Assembly (NCBI GenBank): GCA_965205865.1
Contig: CBDBHR010000029.1
Span: forward strand, 576,001 to 640,000
Origin: a bacterium
GTDB taxonomy: Bacteria; SAR324; NAC60-12
Direction: 5' to 3'
DNA: 64,000 nucleotides
The notes under the pieces are model-generated. The model saw nothing but the letters and a program-made list of their open reading frames with translations, made no database searches and had not been told where the DNA came from. Shown piece after piece: positions 10,822 through 64,000 of this stretch (positions are counted from its first letter, which is position 1; each line of letters opens with the position of its first letter). The position numbers and the translations under genes are program-made.

Positions 10822-11231
10822 TTACGAAACCCCCTCAACATACCTGTCGGCTGATTCAAACAATGGAATGTCACTGGAAACATCATAATATAGCCACTAC
10901 CGATTGGAAAAGGAATGAGCATTTCCGACATCTGAATGCAATTGAACCAATCCATCTGAAGAGCGTCCAAGGAATTCCTCTTTTAGTTCGTATGGATCTT
11001 CAGTATACTGAGCAGATGAAGATATCCTTTACGATCGAATTTAAAAAATCGGCATTCGCCACCTTGAACAGTTTAAACGAGCCGATCGAAACAGAATTCC
11101 GGATGGAATTAAGGCGCAGTTGATACATACGTCCACGGAAGAAACGAGGAATAGGAAATTACTTCGACAGAATCCTCTGGCGGATTGGTAGTTACGAATT
11201 GATCCTTATCGGGTATTTTACGATATCAAAA

Positions 11232-11909
11232 AGAAAGGGGGTCAGGCCTTTGATTAGGTGATTAACCTGAGTTCGAGATAAGAATTTAATAAATTCAATA
11301 TGTTATGGAATCTTCATATCTTAGAGAAACCTTGATAGGGGTCAGGAAGGCATTAGCCTCCCTGCCCTCCGAACCGTGCGTGCGGTTCTCCCGCACACGG
11401 CTCTCCAGTCGTTGGTTTCCTCATCGGGATTGGCTCGCTACCCATCGGGCTTCTTTCATGGTGAAAAGTCCGAGTTGCGCAAAGAAGAGATCGCCTTTGA
11501 CTCCGTTACCCAGAGCCGCCAACATACGTTCGATCCATATCGTTGTTTCCACCCAACTCCAATGAGGAGAGAAAGGGGGTCAGGCCTTTGATTAGGTGAT
11601 TAACCTGAGTTCGAGATAAGAATTTAATAAATTCAATATGTTATGGAATCTTCATATCTTAGAGAAACCTTGATAGGGGTCAGGAAGGCATTAGCCTCCC
11701 TGCCCTCCGAACCGTGCGTGCGGTTCTCCCGCACACGGCTCTCCAGTCGTTGGTTTCCTCATCGGGATTGGCTCGCTACCCATCGGGCTTCTTTCATGGT
11801 GAAAAGTCCGAGTTGCGCAAAGAAGAGATCGCCTTTGACTCCGTTACCCAGAGCCGCCAACATACGTTCGATCCATATCGTTGTTTCCACCCAACTCCAA
11901 TGAGGAGAG
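11232..11909. repeat. Direct tandem duplication with a 338-bp unit (REP motif + MITE left end + intron 3' end)
   Basis: 11232-11571 matches 11570-11909. The ORF track shows the same 86-aa ORF twice, 338 bp apart. Confidence 0.95.
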
Positions 11910-12624
11910 GCTTCTGTTTCCAGGTTAGTCATCTCCGACACTTTGGAAACTCCTTTTTCTTGAGGATCAACTTGATGAACTGCTCGTATCCAACTTCCTA
12001 CCCCGCTTCCCTCTTCGGGATTTTGCTTCTCCCGCTTTTCATGAAGCCTGCCTGTCAATTCAGGTTCGTGTTTGTTTTCCCTGTTGGCCATCTGCTTTCC
12101 CGATGGTGTCACAATATCCTCACCTTGTTGACAGACACAACTCCATTACGGTACTATCAGGGTTCTGACTCCTCTACCTCTCACCAAAGGCAGAGGTCTC
12201 CCTGCTTCTCTCGCTTAACCTTCCTGATGTTCCGTCCCCAACCACGTTATGCGCCTGACCCTCGTTTTATCCACCACCGCAACGGGATCAGTGAGTTTCA
12301 GACTTCGCCACGAATGAGCAAGCTCGTCGCTAACATGCCGCCGAATCGGGTTCGTTCTCCTACGGACCACCATTTCGCCTCCGGTTGCTCCCCACCCCGC
12401 CTCATGGCGACGCAGTTACCTTCGGCTACATGGCTGTGGTTTACCATGGCACGGAATTCCACCGTGCTGATTAAGCGCCTTCCCAGGCGCACTCATTCCT
12501 GCGAAAGCAGGAATCCGGAGGTATGCAGCCAGACTGAAATCCGGATCCCCGCTCCCCGCTTTCGCGAGGATGACATATACACTAGGATACTCATATTATT
12601 GAAGATTTATGTCGAACTCAGGTT
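11602..12624. mobile_element. MITE (TIR AACCTGAGTTCGA, GATT target duplication) carrying a group II intron
   Basis: Ends are aacctgagttcga and tcgaactcaggtt, with gatt on both sides. An intron-free copy is at 32273-32490. Confidence 0.9.
11673..12492 (-). mobile_element. Non-autonomous class C (IIC) group II intron with the RT ORF internally deleted
   Basis: 5' GTGCGCC, DV GAGCCGTGTGCGGGAGAACCGCACGCACGGTTC and 3' ...ACCCCTAT. The residual ORF fuses the IEP N-terminus (WVETTIWIERMLAALGNGVKG) to the C-terminus (FFAQLGLFTM). It lies directly after a hairpin. Confidence 0.88.
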
Positions 12625-12655
12625 GATTAAATAGTGTTACGTTAAATTCTATCAA

Positions 12656-13315
12656 TCAATTTTTCAAGGAGAATAAGATCCGTTTTGATTGCCCCTTCAC
12701 TTGACCGAGCGCATTGATGCCTGAATCGACAAAACTCGAGGCATCATCGCTATCCCTGGAAAAATGATCGCTTTCATGGTATATGGTAGCCACCCGTTGA
12801 TAGTCCAGCTTGGCGTGAGTCGCCTCGATACCGCTAGGAATGAGCACGTCCGTGGTGAGGGCGACGCGAAAGATAAAATCACCAATCACGCTGAGGCCAC
12901 GGGCGGCGGAGGTCGGGCTGACAGCCACGATCTGATTTTCTTGCCCAACCGGGAAAGCCTCTGTGGTCTCGGCTGAAGTCGCGGGTCCGATGATGACGGA
13001 GACCCCACTTGATGAATCAGTTTATTGAAGGCTTCCACGGCACCCTCCACGCTGCTGCGGTCATCTACGATGACGAACTCGATGCTGGCATCGTCGAAGC
13101 GTGTGTTGTTGATCTCATCGAGTGCCAGTTCCAAACCTTGTCCCATTGGTCTGCCAAACGAGGAGGCGAGTCGCCCAGTCACAGGTAAGACGACGCCGAG
13201 GGGAATCTCTCCACCAAGGCTTTCCTTGCTGGCATTGGCGGGTTGGAGAATTTGCGAAATCCGCTCACAGGCGGGAAGAAGCGCAATCAGCGCGCCAAGT
13301 TTACGTGTTTCATCT
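12656..13315 (-). pseudogene. Frameshifted and truncated branched-chain amino acid ABC substrate-binding protein
   Basis: Fragments GLELALDEIN...DDRSSVEGAVEAFNKLI and SPTSAARGLS..GDFIFR lie in different frames. Confidence 0.75.
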
Positions 13316-13407: not shown

Positions 13408-14586
13408 GTGTGTCGCTCTTTTATTAATGTGTAAAAAAATCCTTGGTTTGCTATACTACGAGCTGTCCTTTTTTTTGCATATATGGAGACAGCATGAGAA
13501 AAGCACCAAGTATAAAACTGACCCGGGAAGAACGGGATGAATTGGGCAAAACCGCACGCCGTCATACCGGAGCGATGCGAGACACTCGTCGTGCGCGCAT
13601 CATCCTGTTGGCTGCTGATGGCCTTAAGAATCAAGAAATTGCCAAAACGCTTGGAACCAGCGGTAATGCCGTTGGAAAGTGGCGACGGCGCTTTGTTGAA
13701 AAAGGAATAACAGGTCTCAATGATGATCCGCGGCCTGGCAGGACACGCATTTATGGAGCGGATAAAATCGAGGAGATTGTGAAGAAAACCATTGAAGAGA
13801 AGCCTGAGGACCGTACCCATTGGAGCACGCGATCGATGGCCAAGGCAGTTGGCGTAGGCAAGACAACCGTCGGTAAAGTATGGAAGGCCCATCGCCTCAA
13901 GCCTCATCTGGAAAAAACATTTAAGTTGTCGCATGATAAGCATTTCACTGCGAAACTGAAAGATGTCATCGGTTTGTACATGAATCCTCCTGAGAAAGCG
14001 CTGGTCTTGAGCGTCGATGAGAAATCACAAATCCAGGCACTCGATCGCACCCAGCCAGGTCTGCCACTGAAACCAGGGCGCAATGGCACCAGAACTCATG
14101 ATTATATCCGTCATGGCACCTGCTGTCTGTTTACTGCTTTGAATACGCAGACAGGGGAAGTGCTCGCTCGCTGTGAAAAACGGCACCGACACCAAGAGTA
14201 TCTGCGCTTCCTGCGTCTTATTGACAAGACTACCTCGAAGCAACTGCAGGTACACTTGATCCTGGACAATTACGCCACCCACAAACATCTTAAGGTGAAA
14301 GAATGGCTCAAAAAACACCCGCGATTTCACCCGCATTTCATTCCTACTTCCTCCTCATGGCTGAACATGGTGGAACGCTTTTTTGGCAAGATCACTGCAG
14401 AACGGATTCGACGAGGCGCCTTCAAAAGCGTGCTCGAGTTGACCGAAGCCATCCATAGTTACATCGAGACACACAATCGCAACCCAAAACCCTATGTCTG
14501 GACTAAAACTGCCGAAGAAATTATCAACAAACTCAAACCTGTCTACCAAATGACCAATAATACAATGTATTAAACAGGCAATACAC
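13408..14586 (+). mobile_element. IS630-family insertion sequence
   Basis: Flanked by duplicated TA. Ends are (cta)gtgtgtcgc and gcaatacac(tag). Confidence 0.92.
13494..14573 (+). CDS. IS630 transposase
   Basis: VDEKSQIQAL, DYIRHGT, ILDNYATHK and SSWLNMVERFF motifs. Confidence 0.95.
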   Translation: MRKAPSIKLTREERDELGKTARRHTGAMRDTRRARIILLAADGLKNQEIAKTLGTSGNAVGKWRRRFVEKGITGLNDDPRPGRTRIYGADKIEEIVKKTIEEKPEDRTHWSTRSMAKAVGVGKTTVGKVWKAHRLKPHLEKTFKLSHDKHFTAKLKDVIGLYMNPPEKALVLSVDEKSQIQALDRTQPGLPLKPGRNGTRTHDYIRHGTCCLFTALNTQTGEVLARCEKRHRHQEYLRFLRLIDKTTSKQLQVHLILDNYATHKHLKVKEWLKKHPRFHPHFIPTSSSWLNMVERFFGKITAERIRRGAFKSVLELTEAIHSYIETHNRNPKPYVWTKTAEEIINKLKPVYQMTNNTMY

Positions 14587-32128: not shown

Positions 32129-32272
32129 TCTTATGCTCCTGAGGTGAGGGAGTGAAAAAAATTTTCACTCCCTCGCTGACATATTCGTAGGGGATAGTCG
32201 TACCTGCCTTTAAAATCTTACTGCTTCTCCAATGCATGATAATTTGAAAAATTCACTGACAAAAAAGTGATT

Positions 32273-32490
32273 AACCTGAGTTCGAGATAAGAATTTAATA
32301 AATTCAATATGTTATGGAATCTTCATATCTTAGAGAAAACTTGTCATTCCTGCGAAGCTTGTCCCTGCGAAAGCAGGGAGCAGGAATCCGGAGGTATGCA
32401 GCCAGACTGAAATCCGGATCCCCGCTTTCGCGAGGATGACATATACACTAAGATAATCATATTATTGAAGATTTATGTCGAACTCAGGTT
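32273..32490. mobile_element. MITE, intron-free copy (TIR AACCTGAGTTCGA, GATT duplication) with internal REP-like hairpins
   Basis: Near-identical to the flanks of the intron at 11602-11672 and 12493-12624. Confidence 0.9.
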
Positions 32491-32492
32491 GA

Positions 32493-32987
32493 TTATAGAT
32501 TCTGGATAATCAGTGAGGATATATATTGAGGAGAAAAATCCTTTGTTTCAACAATCTGATCAGCCTGTTCATATAAAGGTGCGCGTTGTAGAAGCAACAT
32601 ATGAATTCGCTCCTCAGGGTTCTCGGTTTGCAGCAAAGGTCGGTGAAGTGTACTTTTGAGCCGTAGTTTGATGTCTTCAATAGACGTTTTTATATAAATG
32701 ATCGTTCCTATTCTTTTCATCACATCAAAATTACCTTCCGACACCACAACACCGCCTCCTGTTGCAATAACCGTATTTTGCGCCAACAAGAGTCTATTGA
32801 GCAGTTTAGTCTCCAAATGCCGAAAATATTCTTCCCCTTGATGAGAAAAAATTTCAGAAATACTGCAATTTTGATCACTTTCAATTTGCTCATCCATATC
32901 GAGGAAATGGTATCCAAGACGGTTGGCCAATTTACGACCAATTGTCGTCTTTCCTCCTCCCATCATGCCGATCAGTATCAGATTCAT
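32493..32987 (-). CDS. aroK: Shikimate kinase
   Basis: GMMGGGKTTIG, GEEYFR, ATGGG and RPLL motifs. Confidence 0.95.
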   Translation of the reverse strand: MNLILIGMMGGGKTTIGRKLANRLGYHFLDMDEQIESDQNCSISEIFSHQGEEYFRHLETKLLNRLLLAQNTVIATGGGVVVSEGNFDVMKRIGTIIYIKTSIEDIKLRLKSTLHRPLLQTENPEERIHMLLLQRAPLYEQADQIVETKDFSPQYISSLIIQNL

Positions 32988-37292: not shown

Positions 37293-38430
37293 CGGAATGA
37301 TAGACATTAAGGCTTAAGCGATTAATGGTAAGTTAGGTCTCTTTCCTTGACTAATAGCATATTCCTTTCTGCAATCCGCTCATTTGTAACGTCGTGAGGT
37401 TTAACGATCTCACGGCGTTTATTTTTTGTCAATATCAACCCCCCAGGCAAAGTTTCAAGGTATCGGTGAACATGTTTTCATTGCGTCTATGGTTGTATTT
37501 GAAGCATGATTCGCCGATATAAAGATGCGCATACCGACGACTATACCAGTGATGTTGGCCATACCATGCGCGTTTTAAAAGACTCCAAAAACTCTCAATC
37601 GTGTTTGTGTGGATATTCCCGTCTACGAATTGCTTTTCATGATCAACAGAATAATGAAATATTTCATCTTTCATTGCTCGGTACCCTGAATATTGATCCG
37701 TCATCAAAACAGCCTTCGCCAGGTCAACGTGCTCCTTCAGCATCTCTTTGAAATTCTTGTTCGATAAGGACTTGTCATCAAAGAGCTCTGCCGCAACTCC
37801 CCCCTTACGCTCCGCAATACCTACAACAGGAAGCTTTTTTGTTCCCCTACCACGCTTGTTGTCATCATCCCTGTCTTCCTTCTTGTTCTCCTTCCTGGGC
37901 TTTCCTCCGACATAGGTTTCATCCATCTCGACGATTCCTTTGAATAGACGTTGTTGCTCGCCATCTTTTCCCATGGCTTCCCGGATTCGTTTCCCGAATG
38001 ACCAGGCAGTTTTGACACTCAAATCCAAGTCTCTTCCGAGTTGACGGTTTGAAATTGATTTCTTGGCATTCAAAACGAGAACGATCCCAAGGAACCATTT
38101 TCTCAAGGAAAGTTTGCTGTTATGGAAGATCGTATTGACGGTTGCCGAAAAAGAACGATGGCAGGATTGACATTGAAGCCGGCTTCTTTGGTTCTTTTCT
38201 TTGTGTCTCGACACCTTCTGGGAATGACAGTAGGGACACTCTGGTTTATCGCTCCATCGTAGATTTTCAAGATGCTTCAGTGCTTCTTCTTCTGTTGGGA
38301 ATTTATTGATTATTTCCATGAGACTTGTGCTTTTCATTTTCAATCTCCTCTGATAGATTCTTGTTTAATTCATTTGAATCTATCATAGCAGATTCCAAGT
38401 ATATGCTAAGCCTTTTTGTCTATCATTCCG
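37293..38430 (-). mobile_element. IS1595-family insertion sequence
   Basis: TIRs cggaatgatagaca / tgtctatcattccg with an 8-bp TSD atattttt. Confidence 0.93.
37435..38343 (-). CDS. IS1595 transposase
   Basis: Zn ribbon CPYC..CQSC, VEMDETYVGG and HTNTIESFW motifs. Confidence 0.95.
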   Translation of the reverse strand: MKMKSTSLMEIINKFPTEEEALKHLENLRWSDKPECPYCHSQKVSRHKEKNQRSRLQCQSCHRSFSATVNTIFHNSKLSLRKWFLGIVLVLNAKKSISNRQLGRDLDLSVKTAWSFGKRIREAMGKDGEQQRLFKGIVEMDETYVGGKPRKENKKEDRDDDNKRGRGTKKLPVVGIAERKGGVAAELFDDKSLSNKNFKEMLKEHVDLAKAVLMTDQYSGYRAMKDEIFHYSVDHEKQFVDGNIHTNTIESFWSLLKRAWYGQHHWYSRRYAHLYIGESCFKYNHRRNENMFTDTLKLCLGG

Positions 38431-38493
38431 ATATTTTTTTATAGCTGACCTCCTTTGTTGCGCAATTCTCCCTGTCCTGACTTGCTATAGGCT

Positions 38494-38928
38494 TTGCGCC
38501 GCGTAGTAGTGCTGAAATCATGCCTTGTTGTTTTAGGGAAGGAGAGGATTTCCGCTCGTTTGATTCAAAATTGGCTGTGGGAGGGTTCCCGCTTGATCAA
38601 TACCCTGGGAGGATGTGAAAACGATGGATCCTTGCCGGGAATCTTTTTTCAACGTTATTGAACTGAACGGCTTCTGACTGTCCCCGGATTTGAGCAGATT
38701 TATTGATTTTTTATTTTTTTTGCGAATCCCGCATTTATTTTGCCTTGGGGGGTTGACATTGGGTTTTTGTGTACTAGAATGATGCCATCATTGAGTTGTT
38801 TTAGTCACAGAGAAGGTTCTCGATTGATTGAGCAATATCGTGGGAGGACGTGAAAACGATTGATCTTCCCCGGGAATCTTTTTTAATGATATTTAACTAA
38901 ACGGGTTTTTCAGAGACCTGAATAGTTA
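38494..38928. repeat. Two tandem diverged copies (C, B) of the ~230-bp repeat, joined at an ACTGTCCCCGGATTT motif
   Basis: Shared blocks gtgaaaacgat..cgggaatctttttt and ttgttttag. Inverted homology to 15365-15795. Confidence 0.8.
38753..38780 (+). promoter_or_regulatory. Sigma70-like promoter inside repeat copy B
   Basis: TTGACA-16 nt-TAGAAT. Confidence 0.5.
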
Positions 38929-40750
38929 GACCCTAGCCGAAAAGGGTTTCGAAAATAGTAAATGTAACCAATTGGATTCTATTTGATTCAATATGACGAG
39001 AAAACGATTATTTTTGTTTTTTATTCGCCCACAGCACAGTTTTTATAGGGAAAAAATCTTTTTTGGACATACTTTCCTCGCCCCTGCTCATATTTCACAC
39101 TCCCCCATTGAATATTCAGGCCGCTTGTTTGAGTTGTCTTTTTTTCAACTCAATCATTTTGCAAAAATTATAGGTTAATGCTTTTTCCAGCAACTCTGCC
39201 CGAACGTTTTCAATCCCTCTGCGCATAACTTGTCCGAAATGGAAACGATGCTTAAGATGAAACATCAACGACTCTGCAGCAGATCTTCCATTTCGTGATT
39301 CCAAATAGATTTCACTTTCCCATTCTTCAATCGGGGTCATCTTTTTTCCCTTTGCCCCACTAATACTAAAAACCTTAACGCCTTTGCCCATCCACTTTTC
39401 TCTGATCGCCTGATTGGCATATCCATCATCAAGGCTCACTTCAGAGGGAATGGTGATGGTGCATCGCAAATGTTCAACAAGGGCAGGGTCGAGTTGCCCT
39501 GAATCAGCAGCATTGCCCTCCGGAGTAATTAACACGGAAATAAAACCATTTCCGCTCCTTCCTAATTGAGGCTTATATCCGATAAGCGCTTCTCGATCTC
39601 CCTTTTGAATATAAGCCGAGCTCTGATCGGAAAGACTCAATACTTTCTCAGTAGAAGGAACCTTCTTTTCTTCAAAAACTCTTTGATGACAGTAGATGAT
39701 TACCCGTTGCAAATTAGAAATATCTTCATTCATCATTTCAATGAGGCGAATCAAACGCGTTTTCCGAGAAGGGGGGAGAAGAGCTTTTTGGGCACGGATA
39801 TCCACCTTTGCCATTTCTTTTAAAAATTTCCCATGAGCGCTTTGAGCTTTCTTCAATAGGGTTTTGTAATGTTTTTTTCGCTTCGTTTTACTGTCCTTTT
39901 TACCTGTCTCAAAAGCAATCATCTTAGAGAGCTTATTCATCTCCTTGATGAGGAAATCAAAATTTCTTTCACTGATCTCAGCGATTCCAAATGTATCAAG
40001 GGAACGCCCTCGATGGTAGCTTCGCTCCACGAGACGAGTCAATATCGACGAATCAGTAGGCCAAGCTGTATTTCCTTTTACAGAGGTGCTATCCAGTTTT
40101 AAAATATCAAAATCGTCCAACTCTTCATCGAGAACCATTCGAATTTGAGCATCGAAAATAAACTGTCTGCTCTCGTTGCTGACAGCATTGACATTATCAA
40201 GGATTGTACTCGCTCCCGGCATTTTCAATCCACGGTTGAGCAGAAGCAGATGCAGTGTGATTGACTCTGAAAGAAATATTTGGGCCGTTTGGGATTTGAT
40301 ACTTCCTAAATATCCCCGAATCATCATAAAAAGGTAGACTAAAAAAGCCGACATCCGAGGACACCCTATTTCCAGCCTCAGTTCTTCCGGCTTCAATTCC
40401 TCATCTTCTACGGGAAGATGAGGAAGCCATGGATTCCGGGCTTCCTGCCATCGTTTATCCTCTAAACGCTCTTTCTTTTTATTTCTTGCGTATTTCTCCA
40501 AATCCTGTTCAATTTTGTCCAATATCTCCGGCTCTCGCTCAGACAATTGATCAAGTTCTGATAAGAAATTTTCAAATTCTGTATCAGGAGCGCTTAAAAT
40601 AAGATGTTTTTCTGCTCGAATGAATGGTTTCATTTTGGGTGCCATAATTCTTAATATTGAAGTTATTCACAGTGATTTCAATGAATTATGGCACTTTTTA
40701 ACCTCAAGTTTAAAGATATAATTCTAAAAAATACCTTTTCGGCTAGGATC
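38929..40750 (-). mobile_element. ISNCY/IS5-like insertion sequence
   Basis: TIRs gaccctagccgaaaagg / ccttttcggctaggatc. No TSD seen. Confidence 0.8.
39116..40645 (-). CDS. DDE transposase (ISNCY/IS5-like)
   Basis: LDSTSVKGNTAWPTDS, SLDDGY and RSAAESLMFHLK motifs. Confidence 0.85.
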   Translation of the reverse strand: MAPKMKPFIRAEKHLILSAPDTEFENFLSELDQLSEREPEILDKIEQDLEKYARNKKKERLEDKRWQEARNPWLPHLPVEDEELKPEELRLEIGCPRMSAFLVYLFMMIRGYLGSIKSQTAQIFLSESITLHLLLLNRGLKMPGASTILDNVNAVSNESRQFIFDAQIRMVLDEELDDFDILKLDSTSVKGNTAWPTDSSILTRLVERSYHRGRSLDTFGIAEISERNFDFLIKEMNKLSKMIAFETGKKDSKTKRKKHYKTLLKKAQSAHGKFLKEMAKVDIRAQKALLPPSRKTRLIRLIEMMNEDISNLQRVIIYCHQRVFEEKKVPSTEKVLSLSDQSSAYIQKGDREALIGYKPQLGRSGNGFISVLITPEGNAADSGQLDPALVEHLRCTITIPSEVSLDDGYANQAIREKWMGKGVKVFSISGAKGKKMTPIEEWESEIYLESRNGRSAAESLMFHLKHRFHFGQVMRRGIENVRAELLEKALTYNFCKMIELKKRQLKQAA

Positions 40751-41276
40751 GAGCTATTCTTAAACAAACAGACTCCTATGTACCCCCCCGAGGTATACAA
40801 GAATGAAAACAGCTTTGAGGACTGGAAGAACCTGGTCGGCACCGGGCCCTATCAACTGACTGAATTTGTGGAGGGCAGCTCTATGACCTATAAGAAGAAT
40901 CCCAACTACTGGGGGGTTGACGAAAAATTCGGGAACCGCCTGCCCTATATTGACGAGTTAAGGCCCGTGCTGTTAGCAGAAGAGTCAGCACGTATTGCGG
41001 CATTGCGCACGGGTAGGATTGATTTCGTTGGTAACCCGGGAGACGCTCAGATATCGAATGTCGACATTATAGCGAGCCTCCAGAAGAGCAACCCTGAACT
41101 CGAATTTCATTTCGTTAAAGCGAATAAGGGCTCCTTCATATTTAACCAGTCTTTGCCGCCGACGCAGGACGTAAGAGTGCGCAAAGCACTGCAGATGGCA
41201 GTGGACAACGAGGCAATTAACGCTAGCATCCATAAGGGTTTAGGAGTTGTAGAGCCTTATGGGGTTTATATTCAAA

Positions 41277-42972
41277 CCTAAATCCTGCAATTGAATATTT
41301 TGATTGAGTTTCCCCCCACTCTTTGAGAGGTTTTTTTAAAAAAAAGGATTTGAGAGTTGAATTTCCATCAGTCCTTGCTCATAAAGGTTTTTCCGCCCTC
41401 CATTAGATCGTCATATTTTGTGATGATCTGATACCCGCTTTCGCGGGCACAAGATTCAAGACGTACTTCTCCCTGGATTTGGGAATCTACATCTCAGCAA
41501 AATGTATCCACTGGAGTGAAACAAAGGTTCCAGGTCTCTCCAACAGCGACCCATGCATCCCATTGAGCATTGTAAAGTGTTCTTTCCGGAACTCTCAGTT
41601 TTTGTTGACGAGCGCCACTCGTCCATTTTCCTGCCATTCGGACAAGATAGGTGCGCATGGTGGCCGGTTCCCAACGGCGCAGTATTGCGTTACCACTACA
41701 AAGGGCCATCCAGCGCAGCGTGTTGTAAGCGAGTATCGCGCATTGGAACAAGGCACTGTTGGCCCAAAAATCGTCGGTTTTAATCTGAGCCAGCGCAGTT
41801 TGATTTTTTGCTTCCTCAATCCATGTCTCAGCGACCGCCCTTTGGCCATACTCTTTGTGAGCCTGCCAGGGAGTGAGCGCGTCAGTGAGAACATAACAAA
41901 AATAATCGTACTCCTTCATCTCAAAGAGGGTGGCCATCCCTTTGAGTTCCTCCTCTTTCTCCCTGCGTACGGCCATGAATTTTCTTGACCTCCTCCAAGT
42001 TTCACATTGGTGGGAAAACTCACACCCTTCCCAAGCGGGCTGCCCCTTCACTTTTTGCCATTTTTGGGTTTCCAACAACGAGACAAGCCCCTTGAGTTTG
42101 ACCTTGATCAGATAGCCATGGCCTCGTTCTTCGAGGAAATCCAGCAAATCCCCCACAAAAAAACCACTGTCTCCACGAAACAGAGTGCGAGTCCGATTTG
42201 GAAGGTGAGCGAGAAGTTGCCGCATGAATTCAACGACTCCATTGCTGGTATAGGCACTCCCATCACGAAGCCAACCCTGAAGAATCTCCTTTGTCTCTGC
42301 GCAAAATGCCAGCAGAGGATGATACGAAGCTGCACCGCGTTTGTGGGGATTATATCCGACAGACACTCCTTGCTGCTTGCCGTAGGCCGTTTTCACAGTG
42401 GAGTCCACGTCAATCACAAGACAGTGTAACACCCCAACGATGCTTGTCCCACTTCGAAGCGCCTTACGCCAGATACCGGCTCGAATCCGATGGTTCAAGC
42501 TCTCCATCTCATTGATGTTTTTCTGTGTGAAAGTACGCAGTATCCGGCCGAATGTGGTTTCATCCGGAATCCTCAGCCAACCGGCCACACGACTCAAAAC
42601 ACGGTCGTTCCAAACTGTCACAATCGAACGAATCGAACGGGCGCCACCAACAATGCCGACCACCGACAAAATGACCATGTCCACCGCGTCATAAAGACCC
42701 GTGGCGCCACGCCGATGATCTACGGTCTGCTCTGTCTTTGAAACAATCCCTTCTTTGTGAAAAAATTTGACAACCGGAATCAAGCCTGCTTGCGCGGTCA
42801 GGTCTCTGCCTCCCTGGCTGATATGGATGTTTTTTGCTGTCGTTCTTGCCGATCTTGCGCTACGTTTGTTTTTCATGGTAATGGTGATCTCTTAAAATGT
42901 TGATTCTGGTGTTAACTATTTGAGTATATTACCATTTCCATGTTTGATTGTCATCTAATTGCAGGATTTAGG
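41277..42972 (-). mobile_element. IS1380-family insertion sequence (complete)
   Basis: TIR cctaaatcctgcaatt at both ends with a 5-bp TSD tcaaa. Confidence 0.93.
41494..42876 (-). CDS. IS1380 transposase
   Basis: LTAQAGL, IDVDST, YHPLLAF, RGDSGF and RAVAETWIEEAK motifs. Confidence 0.95.
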   Translation of the reverse strand: MKNKRSARSARTTAKNIHISQGGRDLTAQAGLIPVVKFFHKEGIVSKTEQTVDHRRGATGLYDAVDMVILSVVGIVGGARSIRSIVTVWNDRVLSRVAGWLRIPDETTFGRILRTFTQKNINEMESLNHRIRAGIWRKALRSGTSIVGVLHCLVIDVDSTVKTAYGKQQGVSVGYNPHKRGAASYHPLLAFCAETKEILQGWLRDGSAYTSNGVVEFMRQLLAHLPNRTRTLFRGDSGFFVGDLLDFLEERGHGYLIKVKLKGLVSLLETQKWQKVKGQPAWEGCEFSHQCETWRRSRKFMAVRREKEEELKGMATLFEMKEYDYFCYVLTDALTPWQAHKEYGQRAVAETWIEEAKNQTALAQIKTDDFWANSALFQCAILAYNTLRWMALCSGNAILRRWEPATMRTYLVRMAGKWTSGARQQKLRVPERTLYNAQWDAWVAVGETWNLCFTPVDTFC

Positions 42973-43703
42973 TCAAAATCTTACAGATTGGGTCTGGCCA
43001 TATAAAGAATGGCCCGACGAGGTCAAGCGTGAGTATGAGTATCGCCCGGCAGATGCAGAAGCGTTGCTTGATGCGGCCGGATATCCACGAGGCGCCGACG
43101 GCTATCGATTCAAGCTCACGCTGAGCAATCTTGTGAGGTTTGAATCGACCTATGCAGAAATCGTCGTAGAGTTCTTCCGCGCCATTGGCGTTGATGCCGA
43201 GATCGTTGTTACTCCTGAAGCTGAGCAGTCCGCTGCCTTTGGAGCGGACACGCACGAGTGGCACATAATGCGTGGTCAGGGTATGGGGGAACGTCGCCCA
43301 GGGCTCTGGTTTGCAGGGCTCGCCACCCAAAACGTGCGTGACGAGAGCTACAGCAAGGTGAAGGACTCGCGTATCGAAACCTTTTATAATAACGCCAACA
43401 ATACTACGGACCTTGAGGAGTATTTTAGCAACATTCGAAAGATCGATGAGATCTTTGTAAGGGAGCACTTTGGCCTGGTTAGACCTGTAAGCCCCTTATT
43501 TCAGGTGGCCAAGCCGTGGGTGCAGGGTTGGCACGGTGAATGGGGTATGGGATACGCCGAGCGTCATACCCACTTTTCTCGCCTCTGGATTGATAGTGCG
43601 CTGAAGAAAGAAATGATGGGAAACTAGCAGTACACTCCTGTGGAGCCGGGGGGTGGTCGCTTGTGAGCGCGCTTCCCAGCTCCCATACTTGGGGCGCAAA
43701 CAC

Positions 43704-47964: not shown

Positions 47965-48063
47965 GAAAAGGTGTCAGGCCTTTGATTATTTGATTAGAAA
48001 GTGATTAGGAATGAGTCCAGTTTTTTTGCCCCCTTTTCATTTAATCAAAGGCCTGACCCTTTC
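47965..48063. repeat. REPIN-like element: inverted pair of GG(T/G)GTCAGGCCTTTGATTA motifs
   Basis: aaaggtgtcaggcctttgatta ... taatcaaaggcctgaccctttc. Confidence 0.8.
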
Positions 48064-48589: not shown

Positions 48590-49477
48590 GAACCTGTTTG
48601 AAAGTCATTTAATTCTCTTTAACATCAAGCAAATCATAGCGACATAGATCATGTTTTCAGAGTTTTTTGTTTTTCTTTCATAATCGATGTTGAGTCTTCG
48701 ATACCATCCAAACCAGGAAAAGGTTCTTTCGACGATCCACCTTTTCGGTAGGACCTGAAAGCCCGTTCCTTGGAGGTTTAGAGTGATCTCAAGTTCACAT
48801 TGAAATCGATTCCATAACCATTGGGCTAATTCCCCTCGATAACCTCCGTCGGCCCAAATCATCTGAATCGAAAAGAACCAGCTAAACATCGATTCCAAAA
48901 GATCGTAAGCACTTTTGGAATCGGAGGCATTGGCATCAGTGACTTTAACCATGAGAGGAATTCCCGAGATATCGACAGCTACATGCCTTTTATGCCCTTT
49001 GATTCGTTTATTTCCATCAAAACCTCGACTATCAGCCAGTTCCGTGGTTTTGACGGATTGACTATCAATCATTGCAGCACTGGGTTCGGGAGCTCTGCCC
49101 ATTTCTATTCGGGTTTGCCGATGGAGAAACTGGTGAATCAGGAACCAAGTGTAGTTCTTGCACCATTTATTGTAGTGGTAATAAACACTTTGCCAAGGAG
49201 GAAAATCTTTGGGAAGCATTCTCCATTGACAACCCGTGGTCACTACATACAAAATGGCGTTTATGATAACTCGTAGTTCCCATTTACGAAGGTGGGCTCC
49301 ACGAGTTGAAAGTTCGGGAAGGTACTCTTGAAGTCTTTCCCATTGTTTATCACTGACATCACTGTTATAACCTGAACGTTCCATGTTCACTCCTTGTTAT
49401 TAAGGTTTCATTTTTCTCAAAATGAATGTGACATGGAACACTTCCAATAGGAAGCTCAACTTATTTCAAACAGGTTC
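48590..49477 (-). mobile_element. IS5-family (IS1031-like) element, transposase 48605-49390
   Basis: TIR gaacctgtttgaaa with TSD tta. IDSQSVK, WADGGY and KRWIVERTFSW motifs. Confidence 0.93.
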
Positions 49478-49648
49478 TTAGTGACATTCGTAACTGTCCC
49501 CGGATTTTCAGAAAAAGAAATTGGCAATTTTTTAAAAATGGGATAAGGCTTACCCTCTGTAGGGCTGTCGTTAAAAACATCTGACCCGATTAAATCTACG
49601 ACAATTTTTTATTCACCAGAGAGAAGTTCAAAGTGAGAAATCAAACAC

Positions 49649-50638
49649 ATGCCCGATCCCTCTCAAGATAAACTGCACAAGCAACATGATAAATTATTCA
49701 AAACAGTTTTTTCTGATCCAAAGGAGGCGTCCAGTTTTTTTAAGAGTTATTTGCCTACATCTTTAGTGGATCAAATCGACTGGACCTCTCTCCACCTAAC
49801 CGATAAGGAATATGTGGATGAAGCCTTTCAGGCAACTGAGTCGGACTTGCTGTATCAAGCACAACGGCAGGGTAGCAACCAGAGGATCATGATCTACTTG
49901 CTCTTTGAGCATCAGTCTGAACCCAGTAAATGGATTCGATTCCGATTGCTGAAATATTGCTGTCGGATTTGGGATGATTCGTTCAAGGTTTTTGCTGAGC
50001 AACAAAAGCTCAAGCCCATCTTTCCCATTGTGTTTTATCAAGGGGAGCGGACTTGGAATTTTTCCACAGAATTCCAGGAACTTATTGAGACCGAGGGCTT
50101 GGATCGGGAGTATCTTCCCCGATTTAGCCATTTTTTGGTCGATCAATCCGGATTTGGACTCGAATCGTTCCAAGGGGAAGTCAAAGCAAGAATTGCGCAA
50201 CTCTTGCTATCTCAAGCGTTTCATGGTCAAATACAAAAAGGATTAGAAATGCTGATCCGTCTGTTGGAAGAAGTGGAGAAAACCGGAGGAATTGATTATA
50301 TTCAAGTCTTTCTGCGTTATTTTTGGCACATTCAAGAGGAGGTGTCCCCTGAAACATTAGCGCAAGCTATTGAAGAATACTCGGACTCTCAACATTTAGG
50401 AGAACAAACGATGTCGATTGCAGAACAGTTGATTGCTCAAGGCGAAAAAAAAGGAATTCAGGAAGGAATCCAAACAGGAATTCAAAAAGGGTTGGATCAA
50501 GGCGAGTTGGTGGGTGAAATTCGATTCGCCCAAAAAATGTTAAAACAACCCCAATCTCCCAAAGAAGAACTCTTTCAAAAAACAGAGGAAGCGTTAAAAA
50601 ACCTGCTTGAACAATTAGAAAAACAGCTGCCCGAATAA
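49649..50638 (+). CDS. Rpn/YhgA-family PD-(D/E)XK nuclease
   Basis: HDKLFK, SDLLY, LFEHQS and PIVFYQG motifs, with C-terminal MSIAEQL..EG repeats. Confidence 0.9.
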   Translation: MPDPSQDKLHKQHDKLFKTVFSDPKEASSFFKSYLPTSLVDQIDWTSLHLTDKEYVDEAFQATESDLLYQAQRQGSNQRIMIYLLFEHQSEPSKWIRFRLLKYCCRIWDDSFKVFAEQQKLKPIFPIVFYQGERTWNFSTEFQELIETEGLDREYLPRFSHFLVDQSGFGLESFQGEVKARIAQLLLSQAFHGQIQKGLEMLIRLLEEVEKTGGIDYIQVFLRYFWHIQEEVSPETLAQAIEEYSDSQHLGEQTMSIAEQLIAQGEKKGIQEGIQTGIQKGLDQGELVGEIRFAQKMLKQPQSPKEELFQKTEEALKNLLEQLEKQLPE

Positions 50639-51015: not shown

Positions 51016-52615
51016 GTCATCGTAAAGAACTGACTTATAGTGGTTTCCAGCCACCTTTCGTCATTCCTCCGGTACAGATCCGGACGTGCGCTGCTAACGC
51101 ATCCGGCTCCTGCTTCGAGTCAGACGCTCAAACGTTGCCGTTTGGCGCACCCTGCTTAAACCGCTCTCTGATTTTACCGGCCTCTGAGTTCCGAACACAG
51201 GAGGGCAAGCAGAATTCCTCTCAGCCAAGTCCCTTTGCTCCACAGGCTCCGTTGATTTCCTTTGCATTATTACTCTCTACAAATGATCTCATTGTTCGCC
51301 GCTTCATGCCGGGTAGAAATACGGCGCGCGCATGTTTAGGTCAACGACTTCCAATGTATCCCCCGTTTCCGGTTTCGTGGCAAAAGGGCGTCAGACCCTG
51401 CATCACGTTTCCGCAAGCCCCCCTCTCATCCCGGACGGTCGGATTTCCCGAGTCCGGTTGGCAGCAACAGCGTTTCCCCAGAAACCCTTCCCACCCAATC
51501 CGAAGCTTAAGCACTCGCCTGCATTCACCCCTGGAGTGAGTGATTTGATCTCCAGCTCGACATTCTTTGTGGTGACACTCTTGACCGACACAAGTTCGGC
51601 AGTGGTTCATGAAATGCCCGCCATTTACCGAGAGCCCCTTTGCCTTTTAGAGGTGTTACCTCCAAAAGGGAGATGTCCAAGCATCCCCTCGACCAGCGTT
51701 ACCCGGTCTTCATCGCTCATACGGACTCATGCGCCAGACCAAAATCCTCCTGCCGATTTCGGTGTTACCCTATACGGTAGGTCCTTGCAGGTTATTGCGA
51801 GTCCCTGCTGGAAGTTGGCCCTTCCCGACGTTATCTCTGTGGATCTTTCCCTGGATGCTTGGATCCATACTCCGGCTCCCTCCAAGGTGCCTGTTCCCAT
51901 TACTTCCCTTGGAACTTCGGCCTTCCCCGAGTAGCGAGCGGGTCGGCGGTTGGGCAACACACCGTCAAGCCAATTCACGACGGAAGTCTCTTTCGGAGCT
52001 GCAATCATTCACTAATGTTCAGGCCTCCAGGTTTGCTCGCCACCCTGTTGGCTCCCACTATGGACTCTCGTCCAAAGCAGACGGTGACTTTTACTTCCGG
52101 GCAGAACGCAAAGCAGTTACCTGCTAAGCGCACCGGATATGCTAGTCGCCCGAATGGGAAACTGACGACAGAGAGACTTTCACTCTCCAAAATCCACAGC
52201 CTTGTCGGCTGCTCACGCTACTACGAACTTGTCCGACTTCCTGAAGACGTAGATATCGGGGTTATTTATTAATTTTCCCGATCCGACTACCAATAGAATG
52301 TTGACAGTCGTCTTCAGGATCTCCCAGGTTCCGGTCAAGAAACTTCCACACATGCACCGGGTCTTTGACTCCGCCAGGCTCAGCCGAGACTCACGCTAAC
52401 GCCTTCGGTTGATATTGCCTTCCCCACCAAACCACAAGGTCAGCGCCTGAAACTATGATTTCGGAGCTCAATACCGAGCCTATGTTCTCCCCTGTCAACG
52501 CTTAGCGCCTATCCTTGCGAATAACCACTCATGACTCGGGGACTCGGCGGGTCGTTACTGCCTTACCGAGTAAGAGACTTTCACTCTCTATTTCTTGCCA
52601 GCTTTCCTGGCGCAC
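51016..52615 (-). mobile_element. RT-deleted copy of the 55162-57118 group II intron, hosting a second intron
   Basis: Near-identical 5' (GTGCGCCAGG) and 3' (DV/DVI ...TGAC) RNA domains. About 1265 bp of the RT ORF is missing at ~51137. Confidence 0.92.
51308..52216 (-). mobile_element. Nested ORF-less group II intron (twintron inner element)
   Basis: 5' GTGAGCAGCCGACAAG, DV-like AACCGGACTCGGGAAATCCGACCGTCCGGGATGAGAGGGGGG and 3' ...CTACCCGGC. Interrupts the host at GTAGTAGC^ATGAAG. Confidence 0.85.
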
Positions 52616-57118: not shown

Positions 57119-57129
57119 CCTTTGGTGCG

Positions 57130-62778: not shown

Positions 62779-63095
62779 CTAACGGCCCTTCTCTTCCTTC
62801 ACGTCTTGATAAACCCAGGTAAACCGCAATGGCGACGCAGGGCTATCAAGAAGGTCAATATTACTTTCTCCAAAGTAACCACCCACCCACGGCTGCCAGA
62901 AGGTATACTCGAAACCGGTAGGACCCCATACATTGAGGTGCTGGCCAATGAGGTACATATCGGCCTCTATAGCCCCATCCTTTAACTCTTCAATGGTAGT
63001 CGCCGCATTCACCTTCTCATCAATGAGGGCGTCATAGACTGGGTCTTTGAAACCGTGCCAGTTCCACGGGCCGTCTGTTACATAAAGTAATACTA
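62779..63095 (-). pseudogene. C-terminal part of a peptide ABC substrate-binding protein cut by IS1380
   Basis: WQPWVGGYFGE...WVYQDVKEEKGR, paralogous to the end of 42959-43627. Confidence 0.75.
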
Positions 63096-64000
63096 CCTAA
63101 ATCCTGCAATTAGATGACAATCAAACATGGAAATGGTAATATACTCAAATAGTTAACACCAGAATCAACATTTTAAGAGATCACCATTACCATGAAAAAC
63201 AAAGGTAGCGCAAGATCGGCAAGAACGACAGCAAAAAACATCCATATCAGCCAGGGAGGCAGAGACCTGACCGCGCAAGCAGGCTTGATTCCGGTTGTCA
63301 AATTTTTTCACAAAGAAGGGATTGTTTCAAAGACAGAGCAGACCGTAGATCATCGGCGTGGCGCCACGGGTCTTTATGACGCGGTGGACATGGTCATTTT
63401 GTCGGTGGTCGGCATTGTTGGTGGCGCCCGTTCGATTCGTTCGATTGTGACAGTTTGGAACGACCGTGTTTTGAGTCGTGTGGCCGGTTGGCTGAGGATT
63501 CCGGATGAAACCACATTCGGCCGGATACTGCGTACTTTCACACAGAAAAACATCAATGAGATGGAGAGCTTGAACCATCGGATTCGAGCCGGTATCTGGC
63601 GTAAGGCGCTTCGAAGTGGGACAAGCATCGTTGGGGTGTTACACTGTCTTGTGATTGACGTGGACTCCACTGTGAAAACGGCCTACGGCAAGCAGCAAGG
63701 AGTGTCTGTCGGATATAATCCCCACAAACGCGGTGCAGCTTCGTATCATCCTCTGCTGGCATTTTGCGCAGAGACAAAGGAGATTCTTCAGGGTTGGCTT
63801 CGTGATGGGAGTGCCTATACCAGCAATGGAGTCGTTGAATTCATGCGGCAACTTCTCGCTCACCTTCCAAATCGGACTCGCACTCTGTTTCGTGGAGACA
63901 GTGGTTTTTTTGTGGGGGATTTGCTGGATTTCCTCGAAGAACGAGGCCATGGCTATCTGATCAAGGTCAAACTCAAGGGGCTTGTCTCGTTGTTGGAAAC
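63096..64000 (+). mobile_element. IS1380 copy (runs off the window), transposase from 63192
   Basis: Near-identical to 41277-42972 in reverse orientation. Confidence 0.93.

What the first reader, a model, noticed from the sequence alone, without database searches (positions are those of the whole stretch)
11602..12624. RT-deleted class C intron riding inside a MITE, with the empty MITE in the same window
Seen: removing 11673-12492 restores ...CTTG|TCATTCCTGCGAA..., as in the 218-bp MITE at 32273-32490. On the intron strand the 5' exon ends in the hairpin TTCCTGC-TTTC-GCAGGAA plus TGA. Known: IIC introns insert just downstream of stem-loops. The MITE is itself inserted in the arm of a GGGGTCAGGCCTTTGATTA repeat, giving triple nesting. 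Inference: the MITE disperses IIC target sites and could carry the intron as cargo, forming a DNA-transposon/retroelement composite with no protein of its own.
Basis: partly seen in the sequence, partly recalled or inferred. Interest (0 to 1): 0.72.

Follow-up and report, generated by a model that had tools for sequence, protein, structure and literature searches.

The report
Protein-less group II intron inside a MITE
A self-splicing group II intron that has lost its own reverse transcriptase sits just after a hairpin inside a tiny IS982-type DNA transposon, so two mobile elements that both depend on outside enzymes are nested, in a way that follows the known targeting rule of this intron class.

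Summary
The core observation holds. Window 11673-12492 (- strand) is an 820-nt group II intron. It has a GUGCG 5' end, an Rfam DV/DVI match, a D1-D3 fold kept by compensatory changes, and an in-frame stump of its protein gene. It lies 3 nt after a 7-bp hairpin inside a 216-bp MITE. Removing it in silico restores the MITE seen empty at 32274-32489 (204 matches, 3 mismatches, 2 indels).

New points:
- The MITE carries IS982-family ends, and both copies are flanked by TGATTA.
- The intron's EBS1 loop pairs 6/6 with the last six exon bases, and this pairing covaries in full-length relatives.
- Class C is well supported but not proven.
- All 7 close relatives whose 5' junction could be read sit at the same kind of hairpin, 4 of them in recognisable MITE sequence.

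Homing into the MITE hairpin is therefore the rule, which supports the idea that the MITE spreads target sites. Movement of MITE plus intron as one DNA unit is not shown.

"Triple nesting" is not supported. The GGGGTCAGGCC motif is the 5'-exon end of a second intron family.

The parts
11673..12492 (-). ORF-deleted group II intron, 820 nt, 5' GUGCG ... CCCCUAU 3'
   Evidence: Aligns with full-length relatives of 1859 nt. 25 of 120 predicted D1-D3 pairs show compensatory changes.
11673..11743 (-). Domains V and VI
   Evidence: RF00029, 54.3 bits against a gathering score of 40.
11759..12112 (-). In-frame stump of the intron-encoded protein gene (117 codons): N-terminal ~95 aa joined to the C-terminal ~21 aa, with RT and X domains deleted
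   Evidence: No Pfam hit. Alignments A1 and A3 with P0218, P0321, P0333 and P0320.
12312..12317 (-). EBS1 loop UCAUUC
   Evidence: Pairs 6/6 with the exon end GAAUGA. Relatives have ACUAAA opposite the exon end UUUAGU at the same loop.
12493..12498 (-). IBS1 GAAUGA, the last six bases of the 5' exon
12496..12513 (-). Target hairpin TTCCTGC-TTTC-GCAGGAA, 3 nt before the insertion point
11603..11672 (+). MITE left arm (3' exon of the intron), beginning with the IS982-type end ACCTGAGTTCGAG
12493..12623 (+). MITE right arm (5' exon of the intron), ending TCGAACTCAGGT
11597..11602 (.). Left flanking direct repeat TGATTA
12624..12629 (.). Right flanking direct repeat TGATTA
11232..11569 (.). First unit of a perfect 338-bp tandem duplication (second unit 11570-11907). 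It holds 33 bp of flank that ends in the TGATTA repeat, the 70-bp MITE left arm, and the last 235 nt of the intron.
   Evidence: Second DV/DVI hit at 11335-11405.
32274..32489 (+). Empty copy of the MITE (216 bp), flanked by TGATTA at 32268-32273 and 32490-32495. Its target hairpin carries a 22-bp nested hairpin.
11238..11256 (+). GGGGTCAGGCCTTTGATTA motif in the left flank (again at 11576-11594 through the duplication). It is an unoccupied copy of the 5'-exon end of the second intron family.

Best explanation
An internally deleted, non-autonomous copy of an endonuclease-less, IIC-type group II intron has retrohomed into its natural target. That target is a short hairpin followed by GAAUGA, a module inside an IS982-type MITE.

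Shown:
- the intron, its boundaries, the deleted protein gene and a structurally intact ribozyme;
- the 6-bp EBS1-IBS1 match with covariation;
- the MITE with IS982-type ends and flanking TGATTA repeats;
- an empty MITE copy;
- the same hairpin target in other copies of the intron.

Inferred:
- The copy was inserted, and could still be spliced or moved, by the protein of a full-length relative acting in trans. Such relatives exist in public data.
- The MITE, by multiplying, multiplies landing sites for the intron.
- A later tandem duplication of 338 bp copied the left junction.

Movement of the 1,021-bp MITE-plus-intron unit by an IS982 transposase is possible in principle but has no direct support.
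For: Intron identity:
-.
- Full-length relatives of 1859 nt align at 71-74% over the 5' 342 nt.
- 25 of 120 predicted pairs are kept through changes on both sides.

Targeting:
- The EBS1 loop is TCATTC in the window and ACTAAA in three Burkholderiales relatives. Their exon ends are GAATGA and TTTAGT.
- A hairpin lies directly upstream in both groups.

Deleted protein gene and possible helpers:
- Alignments.
- P0321 (471 aa) and P0333 (406 aa) share the identical last 21 residues.

IIC type:
- Relatives' proteins carry only PF00078 and PF08388.
- The best solved matches are IIC reverse transcriptases, at 212-228 bits, against 154-179 for T.el4h and 140-142 for LtrA.
- Only about 380 nt lie between the 5' end and the ORF stump.
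- Rfam D1D4-3 scores 41.8 and 34.4 bits in the relatives. It scores 70.9 bits in a Desulfotalea psychrophila plasmid intron.

MITE:
- The TIR core occurs on both arms.
- The same motif ends three complete ~1.04-1.07-kb elements. L066 and L061 encode a full-length IS982 transposase and L032 a frameshifted one. The L066 protein scores 260 bits on NF033520 against a cut-off of 130.
- 19 of 32 complete elements have flanking repeats of 5-7 bp, and both window copies have TGATTA.

Recurrence:
- All 7 non-self close relatives with a readable junction start the exon with TCAT plus a hairpin.
- 4 of the 7 tails match MITE sequence at E<=1e-5.
- In 3 loci of a related genome, 4 of 4 MITE-type hairpins ending GGAATGA are empty.
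Against: - The window copy itself scores only 25 bits on Rfam D1D4-3, below the gathering score of 32.
- No full-length relative of this intron lies in the window. The only RT gene there (55602-57011) is 38% identical to the family and belongs to another intron.
- Whether a helper protein exists in this genome is unknown.
- The class was not tested by a tree against classes D, E and F, and absence of EBS2 was not tested.
- Only two full MITE copies were seen in this genome.
- The junction contexts of other copies were read from spurious antisense ORFs, not from DNA. Two of the 7 tails are only 13 residues long.
- The 338-bp duplication could be an assembly error.
Confidence: 0.75

Rival explanations
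1. The MITE and the intron move together as one DNA transposon, with the intron as cargo. An IS982-family transposase cuts at the MITE ends and carries the 1,021-bp unit to new sites.
For: - Both IS982-type ends are intact, and the unit is flanked by a 6-bp direct repeat.
- Its length of 1,021 bp is close to that of complete IS982 elements with the same ends, 1,037-1,073 bp.
- In Paraburkholderia plasmid pBN3, three identical copies of a related intron share an identical 5' flank of at least 90 nt but have different 3' flanks. Beside each lies a repeated pair of IS91-transposase and integrase genes. This would fit carriage by a DNA element there.
Against: - No second identical composite was seen.
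- Copies elsewhere differ in hairpin variant and, in P0005, in which hairpin is used. That is what repeated homing predicts.
- The same junction is expected from independent homing, so shared junctions would not discriminate.
- No IS982 transposase lies in the window or in the three loci of the related genome.
- The flanking repeat is equally explained by insertion of the MITE before the intron arrived.
Confidence: 0.15
2. The copy is a dead relic. It can no longer splice or move, and it sits in a decaying, IS-rich stretch where rearrangements such as the 338-bp duplication accumulate.
For: - No cognate protein gene lies in the window.
- Neighbours are pseudogene fragments and an IS630 element.
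- A tandem duplication cuts across the left junction.
- Truncated copies of the family exist elsewhere: P0008 and P0010 hold only the 5' part.
Against: - The ribozyme retains GUGCG, a canonical DV, and D1-D3 helices with 25 compensatory pairs relative to distant relatives.
- EBS1 still matches its exon 6/6.
- The deletion keeps the reading frame and both ends of domain IV.
- Near-parent proteins exist in public data.
Confidence: 0.25
3. The intron belongs to an endonuclease-less class other than C. It finds the MITE by ordinary sequence-specific pairing, and the hairpin is incidental.
For: - EBS1-IBS1 is 6 bp, longer than I recall for IIC introns (the usual length is recalled, not checked here).
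- The protein has a long N-terminal extension not seen in the solved IIC proteins: matches start at residue ~81-107.
- Classes D, E and F also lack the endonuclease domain (PMC4424553, passages read).
Against: - Two subfamilies with unrelated IBS1 sequences both have a hairpin directly upstream.
- The ribozyme is compact.
- Rfam D1D4-3 is the matching model, and a phage intron described as lying in the typical IIC position is reported to hit the same model (PMC12350094, passages read).
- The best solved relatives are all IIC proteins.
Confidence: 0.1

Closest known systems
Bacterial group IIC (class C) introns that insert after terminator stem-loops, and the IIC-attC subgroup that inserts at integron attC hairpins
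   Same: - The protein lacks the endonuclease domain.
- The ribozyme is compact.
- Insertion lies a few bases 3' of a DNA stem-loop, with a short EBS1-IBS1 pairing.
- IIC-attC introns are a precedent for a IIC lineage tied to a hairpin that belongs to another mobile system (PMC4424553 and PMC7306698, passages read).
   Different: - The hairpin here has no U-run and is not an attC. It is a module inside an IS982-type MITE.
- The pairing is 6 bp.
- This copy has lost its protein gene.
ORF-less bacterial group II introns served in trans by related introns (for example the Thermosynechococcus family)
   Same: An internal deletion of the protein gene with the ribozyme kept. Dependence on a relative's protein is the accepted model (PMC4424553, passages; PMC2882425, search listing only).
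   Different: - The review calls such introns rare in bacteria.
- In this lineage, 24 of the 150 best representative hits are in-frame mini-ORFs with different deletion junctions.
- No helper was found in the 64-kb window.
Group II introns 'hiding' in mobile elements
   Same: The intron sits inside another mobile element, where insertion harms no host gene (PMC7306698, abstract and passages).
   Different: - That survey reported only a slight preference of class C introns for mobile-element neighbourhoods.
- Here the host element is a protein-less MITE, and the intron targets a structural module of it.
IStrons (group I intron plus IS) and the Thiomargarita 'MITEtron' (a MITE inside a group I intron)
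   Same: Chimeras of a self-splicing intron and a DNA transposon or MITE (PMC4227781, abstract in the search listing; PMC4853749, passages).
   Different: - Those involve group I introns.
- In the MITEtron the nesting is the other way round.
- In IStrons the two parts move as one unit, which is not shown here.
IS982-derived MITEs (for example in Cardinium)
   Same: An element of about 240 bp with ends like those of an IS982-family IS and no transposase gene (PMC9769881, passages).
   Different: The interior here is built of palindromic hairpin modules and serves as an intron target. The cognate IS was not found in the sequence held.

Membership tests
Group II intron ribozyme | Conserved 5' end GUGYG | tested here: met
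   GUGCG at 12492-12488 on the - strand.
Group II intron ribozyme | Domain V/VI match | tested here: met
   RF00029, 54.3 bits against a gathering score of 40.
Group II intron ribozyme | D1-D4 covariance model match | tested here: inconclusive
   Window copy: 25 bits on RF02001, below the gathering score of 32. Aligned full-length relatives: 41.8 and 34.4 bits. 25 of 120 predicted pairs are compensatory.
Group II intron ribozyme | EBS1-IBS1 pairing with the 5' exon | tested here: met
   6/6 bp, and it covaries with relatives: TCATTC/GAATGA against ACTAAA/TTTAGT.
Group IIC / class C intron | Protein with RT and X domains only, no D/En | tested here: met
   All 120 listed full-length relatives of P0121 carry PF00078 and PF08388 and no endonuclease family; one also lists PF00680. 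The same holds for P0321, P0323 and P0333. The feature is shared with classes D, E and F (PMC4424553).
Group IIC / class C intron | Protein groups with class C in a phylogeny | tested here: inconclusive
   The best solved relatives are IIC proteins (7uim 212-228 bits, 6ar1 206-227), against 6me0 at 154-179 and 5g2x at 140-142. No reference proteins of classes D, E or F were at hand, and no tree was built.
Group IIC / class C intron | Insertion a few bases 3' of a DNA stem-loop | tested here: met
   A 7-bp stem, a 4-nt loop, then TGA. The relatives have ACCGC-GTCA-GCGGT followed by TTAGT.
Group IIC / class C intron | No EBS2-IBS2 pairing; the 3' exon is read by EBS3 | not tested
   Only a candidate EBS3 was found: alignment column 136 (window 12357). 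It is G where the 3' exon starts with C and U where it starts with A. It is the only one of 4 such columns that is unpaired.
Group IIC / class C intron | Small ribozyme | tested here: met
   380 nt from the 5' end to the start of the ORF stump and 86 nt after its stop, so about 466 nt of non-coding RNA. The typical IIC size is recalled, not checked.
MITE derived from an IS982-family element | Terminal inverted repeats matching those of an autonomous IS | tested here: met
   The core AACCTGAGTTCGA occurs on both arms of both copies. The same motif ends three complete elements: L066 and L061 encode a full-length IS982 transposase and L032 a frameshifted one.
MITE derived from an IS982-family element | Target-site duplication | tested here: met
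   TGATTA flanks both window copies. 19 of 32 complete elements of the family have repeats of 5-7 bp. The two copies share the same 6-mer, which is unexplained.
MITE derived from an IS982-family element | Small and non-coding | tested here: met
   216 bp for the empty copy.
MITE derived from an IS982-family element | Many copies in the genome and a cognate transposase in trans | tested here: inconclusive
   The 64-kb window holds two full copies plus one duplicated arm. Related copies at 70-93% identity lie in another genome. No IS982 transposase lies in the window.
Intron-transposon chimera that moves as one unit (IStron-like) | Identical composites at different sites | tested here: inconclusive
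   None was seen. Only protein-level views of other copies were available, and they show different hairpin variants.

The most novel reading that the evidence does not exclude
A lineage of IIC-type introns has specialised on the hairpin modules of IS982-type MITEs. Its RT-deleted derivatives, lodged in those MITEs, form a doubly non-autonomous composite that can spread by two routes. One is retrohoming, with an intron protein supplied in trans. The other is cut-and-paste transposition, with an IS982 transposase supplied in trans. The DNA transposon would seed new landing sites, and the intron would ride along.
Probability: 0.15. Interest if true: 0.75.

Novelty: new variant of a known kind. 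Interest (0 to 1): 0.5.

Why it matters
IIC introns are known to choose DNA hairpins rather than long sequences. They are mostly seen after terminators, and one subgroup at integron attC sites. Here a lineage appears tied to a hairpin module carried by a MITE. The number and spread of its landing sites would then be set by another mobile element.

The lineage also produces many RT-deleted, in-frame mini-ORF derivatives, although ORF-less introns are described as rare in bacteria. If the census bears this out, it offers a natural system for two questions: how retroelements and DNA transposons shape each other's niches, and how non-autonomous introns persist.

As it stands, it is a clear and instructive example of known rules, not a new mechanism.

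Tried and rejected
- **Genome-wide MITE census.** The motif proved to be the end of a widespread IS982-type family in many phyla. None of the loci came from the window's genome, and only 3 loci of one related MAG hold close MITE relatives. Occupancy in this genome therefore stayed unmeasured.
- **Contigs behind the other intron copies.** The listing of cluster members, meant to tell whether they share an assembly, was switched off. The question was left open.
- **IS630 as parent of the MITE.** I first read the flanks as a TA duplication of the IS630/mariner type, because an IS630 lies next door at 13443-14573. I rejected this once complete elements with the same ends proved to encode IS982 transposases and to carry 5-7-bp repeats.
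- **The window's own RT gene as parent.** The gene at 55602-57011 is only 38% identical to the family, and its RNA is of a different Rfam type, D1D4-6.
- **Triple nesting.** Rejected: no second arm of the GGGGTCAGGCC... repeat follows the MITE.
- **Pfam on the ORF stump.** No hit.
- **The first hairpin-scanning script.** It missed true sites through a regex fault and was replaced.
- **Literature.** Searches for a group II intron inside a MITE listed no such case among the papers shown. The nearest were the group I 'MITEtron' and IStrons. One further search failed on a syntax error.
- **Supplements.** Supplementary tables of PMC3552965 and PMC7306698, which may list the class of the Cupriavidus and Paraburkholderia introns, could not be seen.

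Full report
**What is there**

On the - strand, window 12492 to 11673 is an 820-nt group II intron. It starts GUGCG and ends CCCCUAU. Rfam's DV/DVI model matches 11673-11743 at 54.3 bits, against a gathering score of 40. The best D1-D4 model, RF02001 (D1D4-3), reaches only 25 bits on this copy, below its gathering score of 32.

Domain IV holds a 117-codon ORF at 11759-12112 with no Pfam hit. This ORF aligns with the first ~95 and the last ~21 residues of 470-500-aa intron proteins that carry only the RT and maturase families.

P0321 (471 aa) and P0333 (406 aa) share the identical last 21 residues. P0320 matches the N-terminal part at 79% over 88% of the query. Near-parents therefore exist in public data. 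Whether one lies in this genome is unknown.

**Ribozyme and targeting**

Full-length relatives of 1859 nt occur on replicons held in the plasmid collection, from Cupriavidus sp. P-10, C. taiwanensis and Paraburkholderia aromaticivorans. The first 342 nt align at 71-74% identity. In the consensus fold, 25 of 120 predicted pairs are kept through changes on both sides. The window copy has thus stayed under structural constraint.

The loop of one D1 hairpin reads UCAUUC in the window (12317-12312) and ACUAAA in the relatives. The last six exon bases are GAAUGA and UUUAGU respectively. This is a 6-bp EBS1-IBS1 pairing that covaries, and it fixes the 5' boundary.

A hairpin lies directly upstream in both groups. 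In the window it is TTCCTGC-TTTC-GCAGGAA followed by TGA. In the relatives it is ACCGC-GTCA-GCGGT followed by TTAGT.

A candidate EBS3 lies at alignment column 136 (window 12357). It is G where the 3' exon starts with C and U where it starts with A. It is the only unpaired column among 4 with this pattern. This is tentative.

**Class**

Five results point to IIC:
- The relatives' proteins lack an endonuclease domain.
- The best solved relatives are the IIC proteins 7uim and 6ar1, at 206-228 bits. T.el4h scores 154-179 and LtrA 140-142.
- The non-coding RNA is short, about 466 nt.
- Insertion follows a stem-loop.
- The relatives pass the gathering score of Rfam D1D4-3, at 41.8 and 34.4 bits. 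The same model scores 70.9 bits on a Desulfotalea psychrophila plasmid intron.

Two papers bear on the last point. D.p.I1 is listed among class C ORFs in PMC3552965 (passage), though I cannot show that this plasmid copy is D.p.I1. A phage intron that PMC12350094 describes as lying in the typical IIC position hits the same model (passages).

No tree against classes D, E and F was built, and EBS2 was not examined. I therefore hold class C at about 0.8.

**The MITE**

With the intron removed in silico, the flanks align with 32267-32495 at 204 matches, 3 mismatches and two indels. The empty copy has 22 extra bases that form a hairpin nested in the loop of the target hairpin. The occupied copy has a 7-bp duplication.

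Both copies begin ACCTGAGTTCGAG, end TCGAACTCAGGT, and are flanked by TGATTA.

The elements found are 57-360 bp or 1,037-1,073 bp long. The long ones encode IS982-family transposases: L066 scores 260 bits on NF033520 against a cut-off of 130, and tblastn finds such a gene beside the motif in 6 of the 101 loci.

Of 32 complete elements, 19 have flanking repeats of 5-7 bp, 11 share only TA, and 2 have none. The element is therefore an IS982-type MITE, a kind already described in PMC9769881 (passages).

No IS982 transposase lies in the window. The closest MITE relatives, at 70-93% identity, are in a MAG (L001, L058). None of them holds the intron.

**Is the association a rule?**

DNA of other copies could not be fetched, so I used the spurious 306-codon ORF that runs antisense through the intron into the MITE (11714-12634). 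It has 49 relatives in the protein collection, and I read all 49.

Eight carry the junction motif LPRRT, including the window's own protein. The tails of the 7 others all begin H-S or H-P, which is TCAT followed by a palindrome:
- HSCESRNP in 3 tails.
- HSWRRPGIQ in 2 tails.
- HSWLDQESRG in 1 tail.
- HPREACPRFRGDKLREDD in 1 tail.

Four tails (P0003, P0005, P0006, P0007) match MITE sequences of the window or of the related MAG at E<=1e-5. P0005 runs through the MITE's end into a different flank. P0008 matches over the hairpin only. P0001 and P0004 are too short to judge, at 13 residues. P0005 uses a different hairpin of the MITE.

More distant relatives also start the exon with TH, for example P0014, P0016, P0019 and P0028.

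Within the sequences held, the target motif (a stem followed by GGAATGA) occurs twice in the window, both times in the MITE copies, with one site occupied. It occurs four times in the three loci of the related MAG, and all four sites are empty.

Repeated homing into this hairpin module is the best reading. The variety of hairpin variants argues for independent insertions rather than spread of a single composite.

- *The tandem duplication.* Window 11232-11569 and 11570-11907 are a perfect 338-bp tandem duplication with 2 bp of microhomology. Each unit spans 33 bp of flank ending in the TGATTA repeat, the 70-bp MITE left arm and the last 235 nt of the intron. This explains the second GGGGTCAGGCCTTTGATTA and the second DV/DVI hit. 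It may be real or an assembly error.
- *The repeat motif.* GGGGTCAGGCC is the end of the 5' exon of a second, unrelated group II intron present twice in the window. It also forms the arms of a 91-bp palindrome at 47970-48060. No second arm follows the MITE, so nesting of the MITE in that repeat is not shown.

**Mechanism, with status**

- Shown: the anatomy, the pairing, the recurrent target and the empty site.
- Inferred: insertion and splicing depend on a relative's protein in trans. This is the accepted model for bacterial ORF-less introns (PMC4424553, passages).
- Inferred: the MITE multiplies landing sites.
- Open: whether the 1,021-bp composite has ever moved as DNA. Its intact ends, its flanking repeat and its IS-like length allow this, but nothing demonstrates it.

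**Comparison and novelty**

Several elements of this case are already known:
- IIC introns that target terminator or attC hairpins.
- Introns that hide in mobile elements.
- ORF-less derivatives.
- IS982-derived MITEs.
- Group I intron-transposon chimeras.

References for these are PMC4424553, PMC7306698, PMC9769881, PMC4853749 and PMC4227781, read as stated in the other fields. Four searches listed no paper that describes a group II intron lodged in a MITE hairpin. I rate the finding as a new variant of a known kind, of moderate interest.

**Left unchecked**

- Genome-wide counts.
- The metagenome and viral collections.
- The contigs of the other copies.
- Supplementary tables of the cited surveys.

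Noticed in passing
window 55162-57123 (+), and 52615-51011 (-): A second, unrelated group II intron family (Rfam D1D4-6, 168 bits). One copy is full length, with a 470-aa RT/maturase gene at 55602-57011. The other copy lacks the protein gene: it keeps the 5' 587 nt and the 3' 127 nt as inverted repeats of the first. Both follow a 5' exon that ends GGGGTCAGGCC.
   Followed up: partly
window 51308-52215 (-): A 908-bp insert interrupts the deleted copy of the second intron at the position matching 55561/55562 of the full copy. It starts GTGAGC and has a weak Rfam D1D4-4 match at 52013-52189 (33.2 bits, below the gathering score of 49, E=1e-4). It may be a third, nested ORF-less group II intron, twintron-like. 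No DV match was found in it.
   Followed up: partly
window 47970-48060; also 11238-11256 and 11576-11594: A 91-bp palindromic element whose two arms are GG(T/G)GTCAGGCCTTTGATTA, the unoccupied form of the second intron's exon end. This may be a second case in the same window of a small repeat that carries an intron landing site.
   Followed up: partly
proteins P0050-P0199: Among the 150 best representative relatives of the ORF stump, none is longer than 256 aa. In 24 of them the N-terminal motif (RMLAAL..GVKG) is joined within 40 residues or fewer to the C-terminal motif (FFA..GLFT...ASQSR), at different junctions. These are many independent in-frame RT deletions in one intron lineage. 83 others keep only the N-terminal motif. 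Why the frame is kept is unexplained, and gene callers may bias the sample.
   Followed up: partly
NZ_CP022993.1 (L105-L108), Paraburkholderia aromaticivorans plasmid pBN3: The plasmid holds four 100% identical full-length copies of the related intron, plus one 239-nt 3' fragment. Two copies lie head to tail with no spacer (108631-106773 and 106772-104914). Three of the four have an identical 5' flank of at least 90 nt but different 3' flanks, and beside each lies a repeated pair of IS91-family transposase and integrase genes.
   Followed up: partly
proteins P0006, P0008, P0010: P0006 reads through two copies of the intron about 57 nt apart, and the second copy has a larger deletion. P0008 and P0010 hold only the 5' part of the intron, broken at the same point (…TLLKDTT). 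In P0010 that part is fused to a luciferase-like monooxygenase gene.
   Followed up: no
window 32344-32390; L007 589-1317: The target hairpin behaves as a module of its own. The empty MITE has a second hairpin nested in its loop. The same TTCCTGC...GCAGGAATGA module occurs four times in a 2.2-kb stretch of a Lutibacter MAG, in and between MITEs with the same ends. It may be an independently spreading palindrome.
   Followed up: no
L001-L101: The 18-letter end motif AACCTGAGTTCGASATAA occurs in genomes of many phyla, including Bacteroidota, Cyanobacteriota, Pseudomonadota, Acidobacteriota and Saccharibacteria. It is often about 100-170 bp from contig ends. This points to a very widespread family of IS982-type MITEs that breaks assemblies.
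   Followed up: partly
window 11124-11231, 12656-13182, 13443-14573, 37435-43000, 48605-50638, 63094-64000: The stretch is rich in insertion sequences and decayed genes. It holds IS630, IS1595, IS4/IS5-type and DDE_Tnp_1_4 transposases, the last as a 906-bp perfect inverted repeat at 42068-42973 / 63095-64000. It also holds a YhgA-like transposase, split fragments of a periplasmic binding protein next to the composite, and split ABC-transporter genes. Window GC is 47.7%.
   Followed up: no
window 11597-11602, 12624-12629, 32268-32273, 32490-32495: Both MITE copies are flanked by the same 6-mer, TGATTA, each preceded by G. Other members of the family mostly have 5-bp repeats such as TAATA or TATTA. 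This may be a target preference or chance, and it is unexplained.
   Followed up: no
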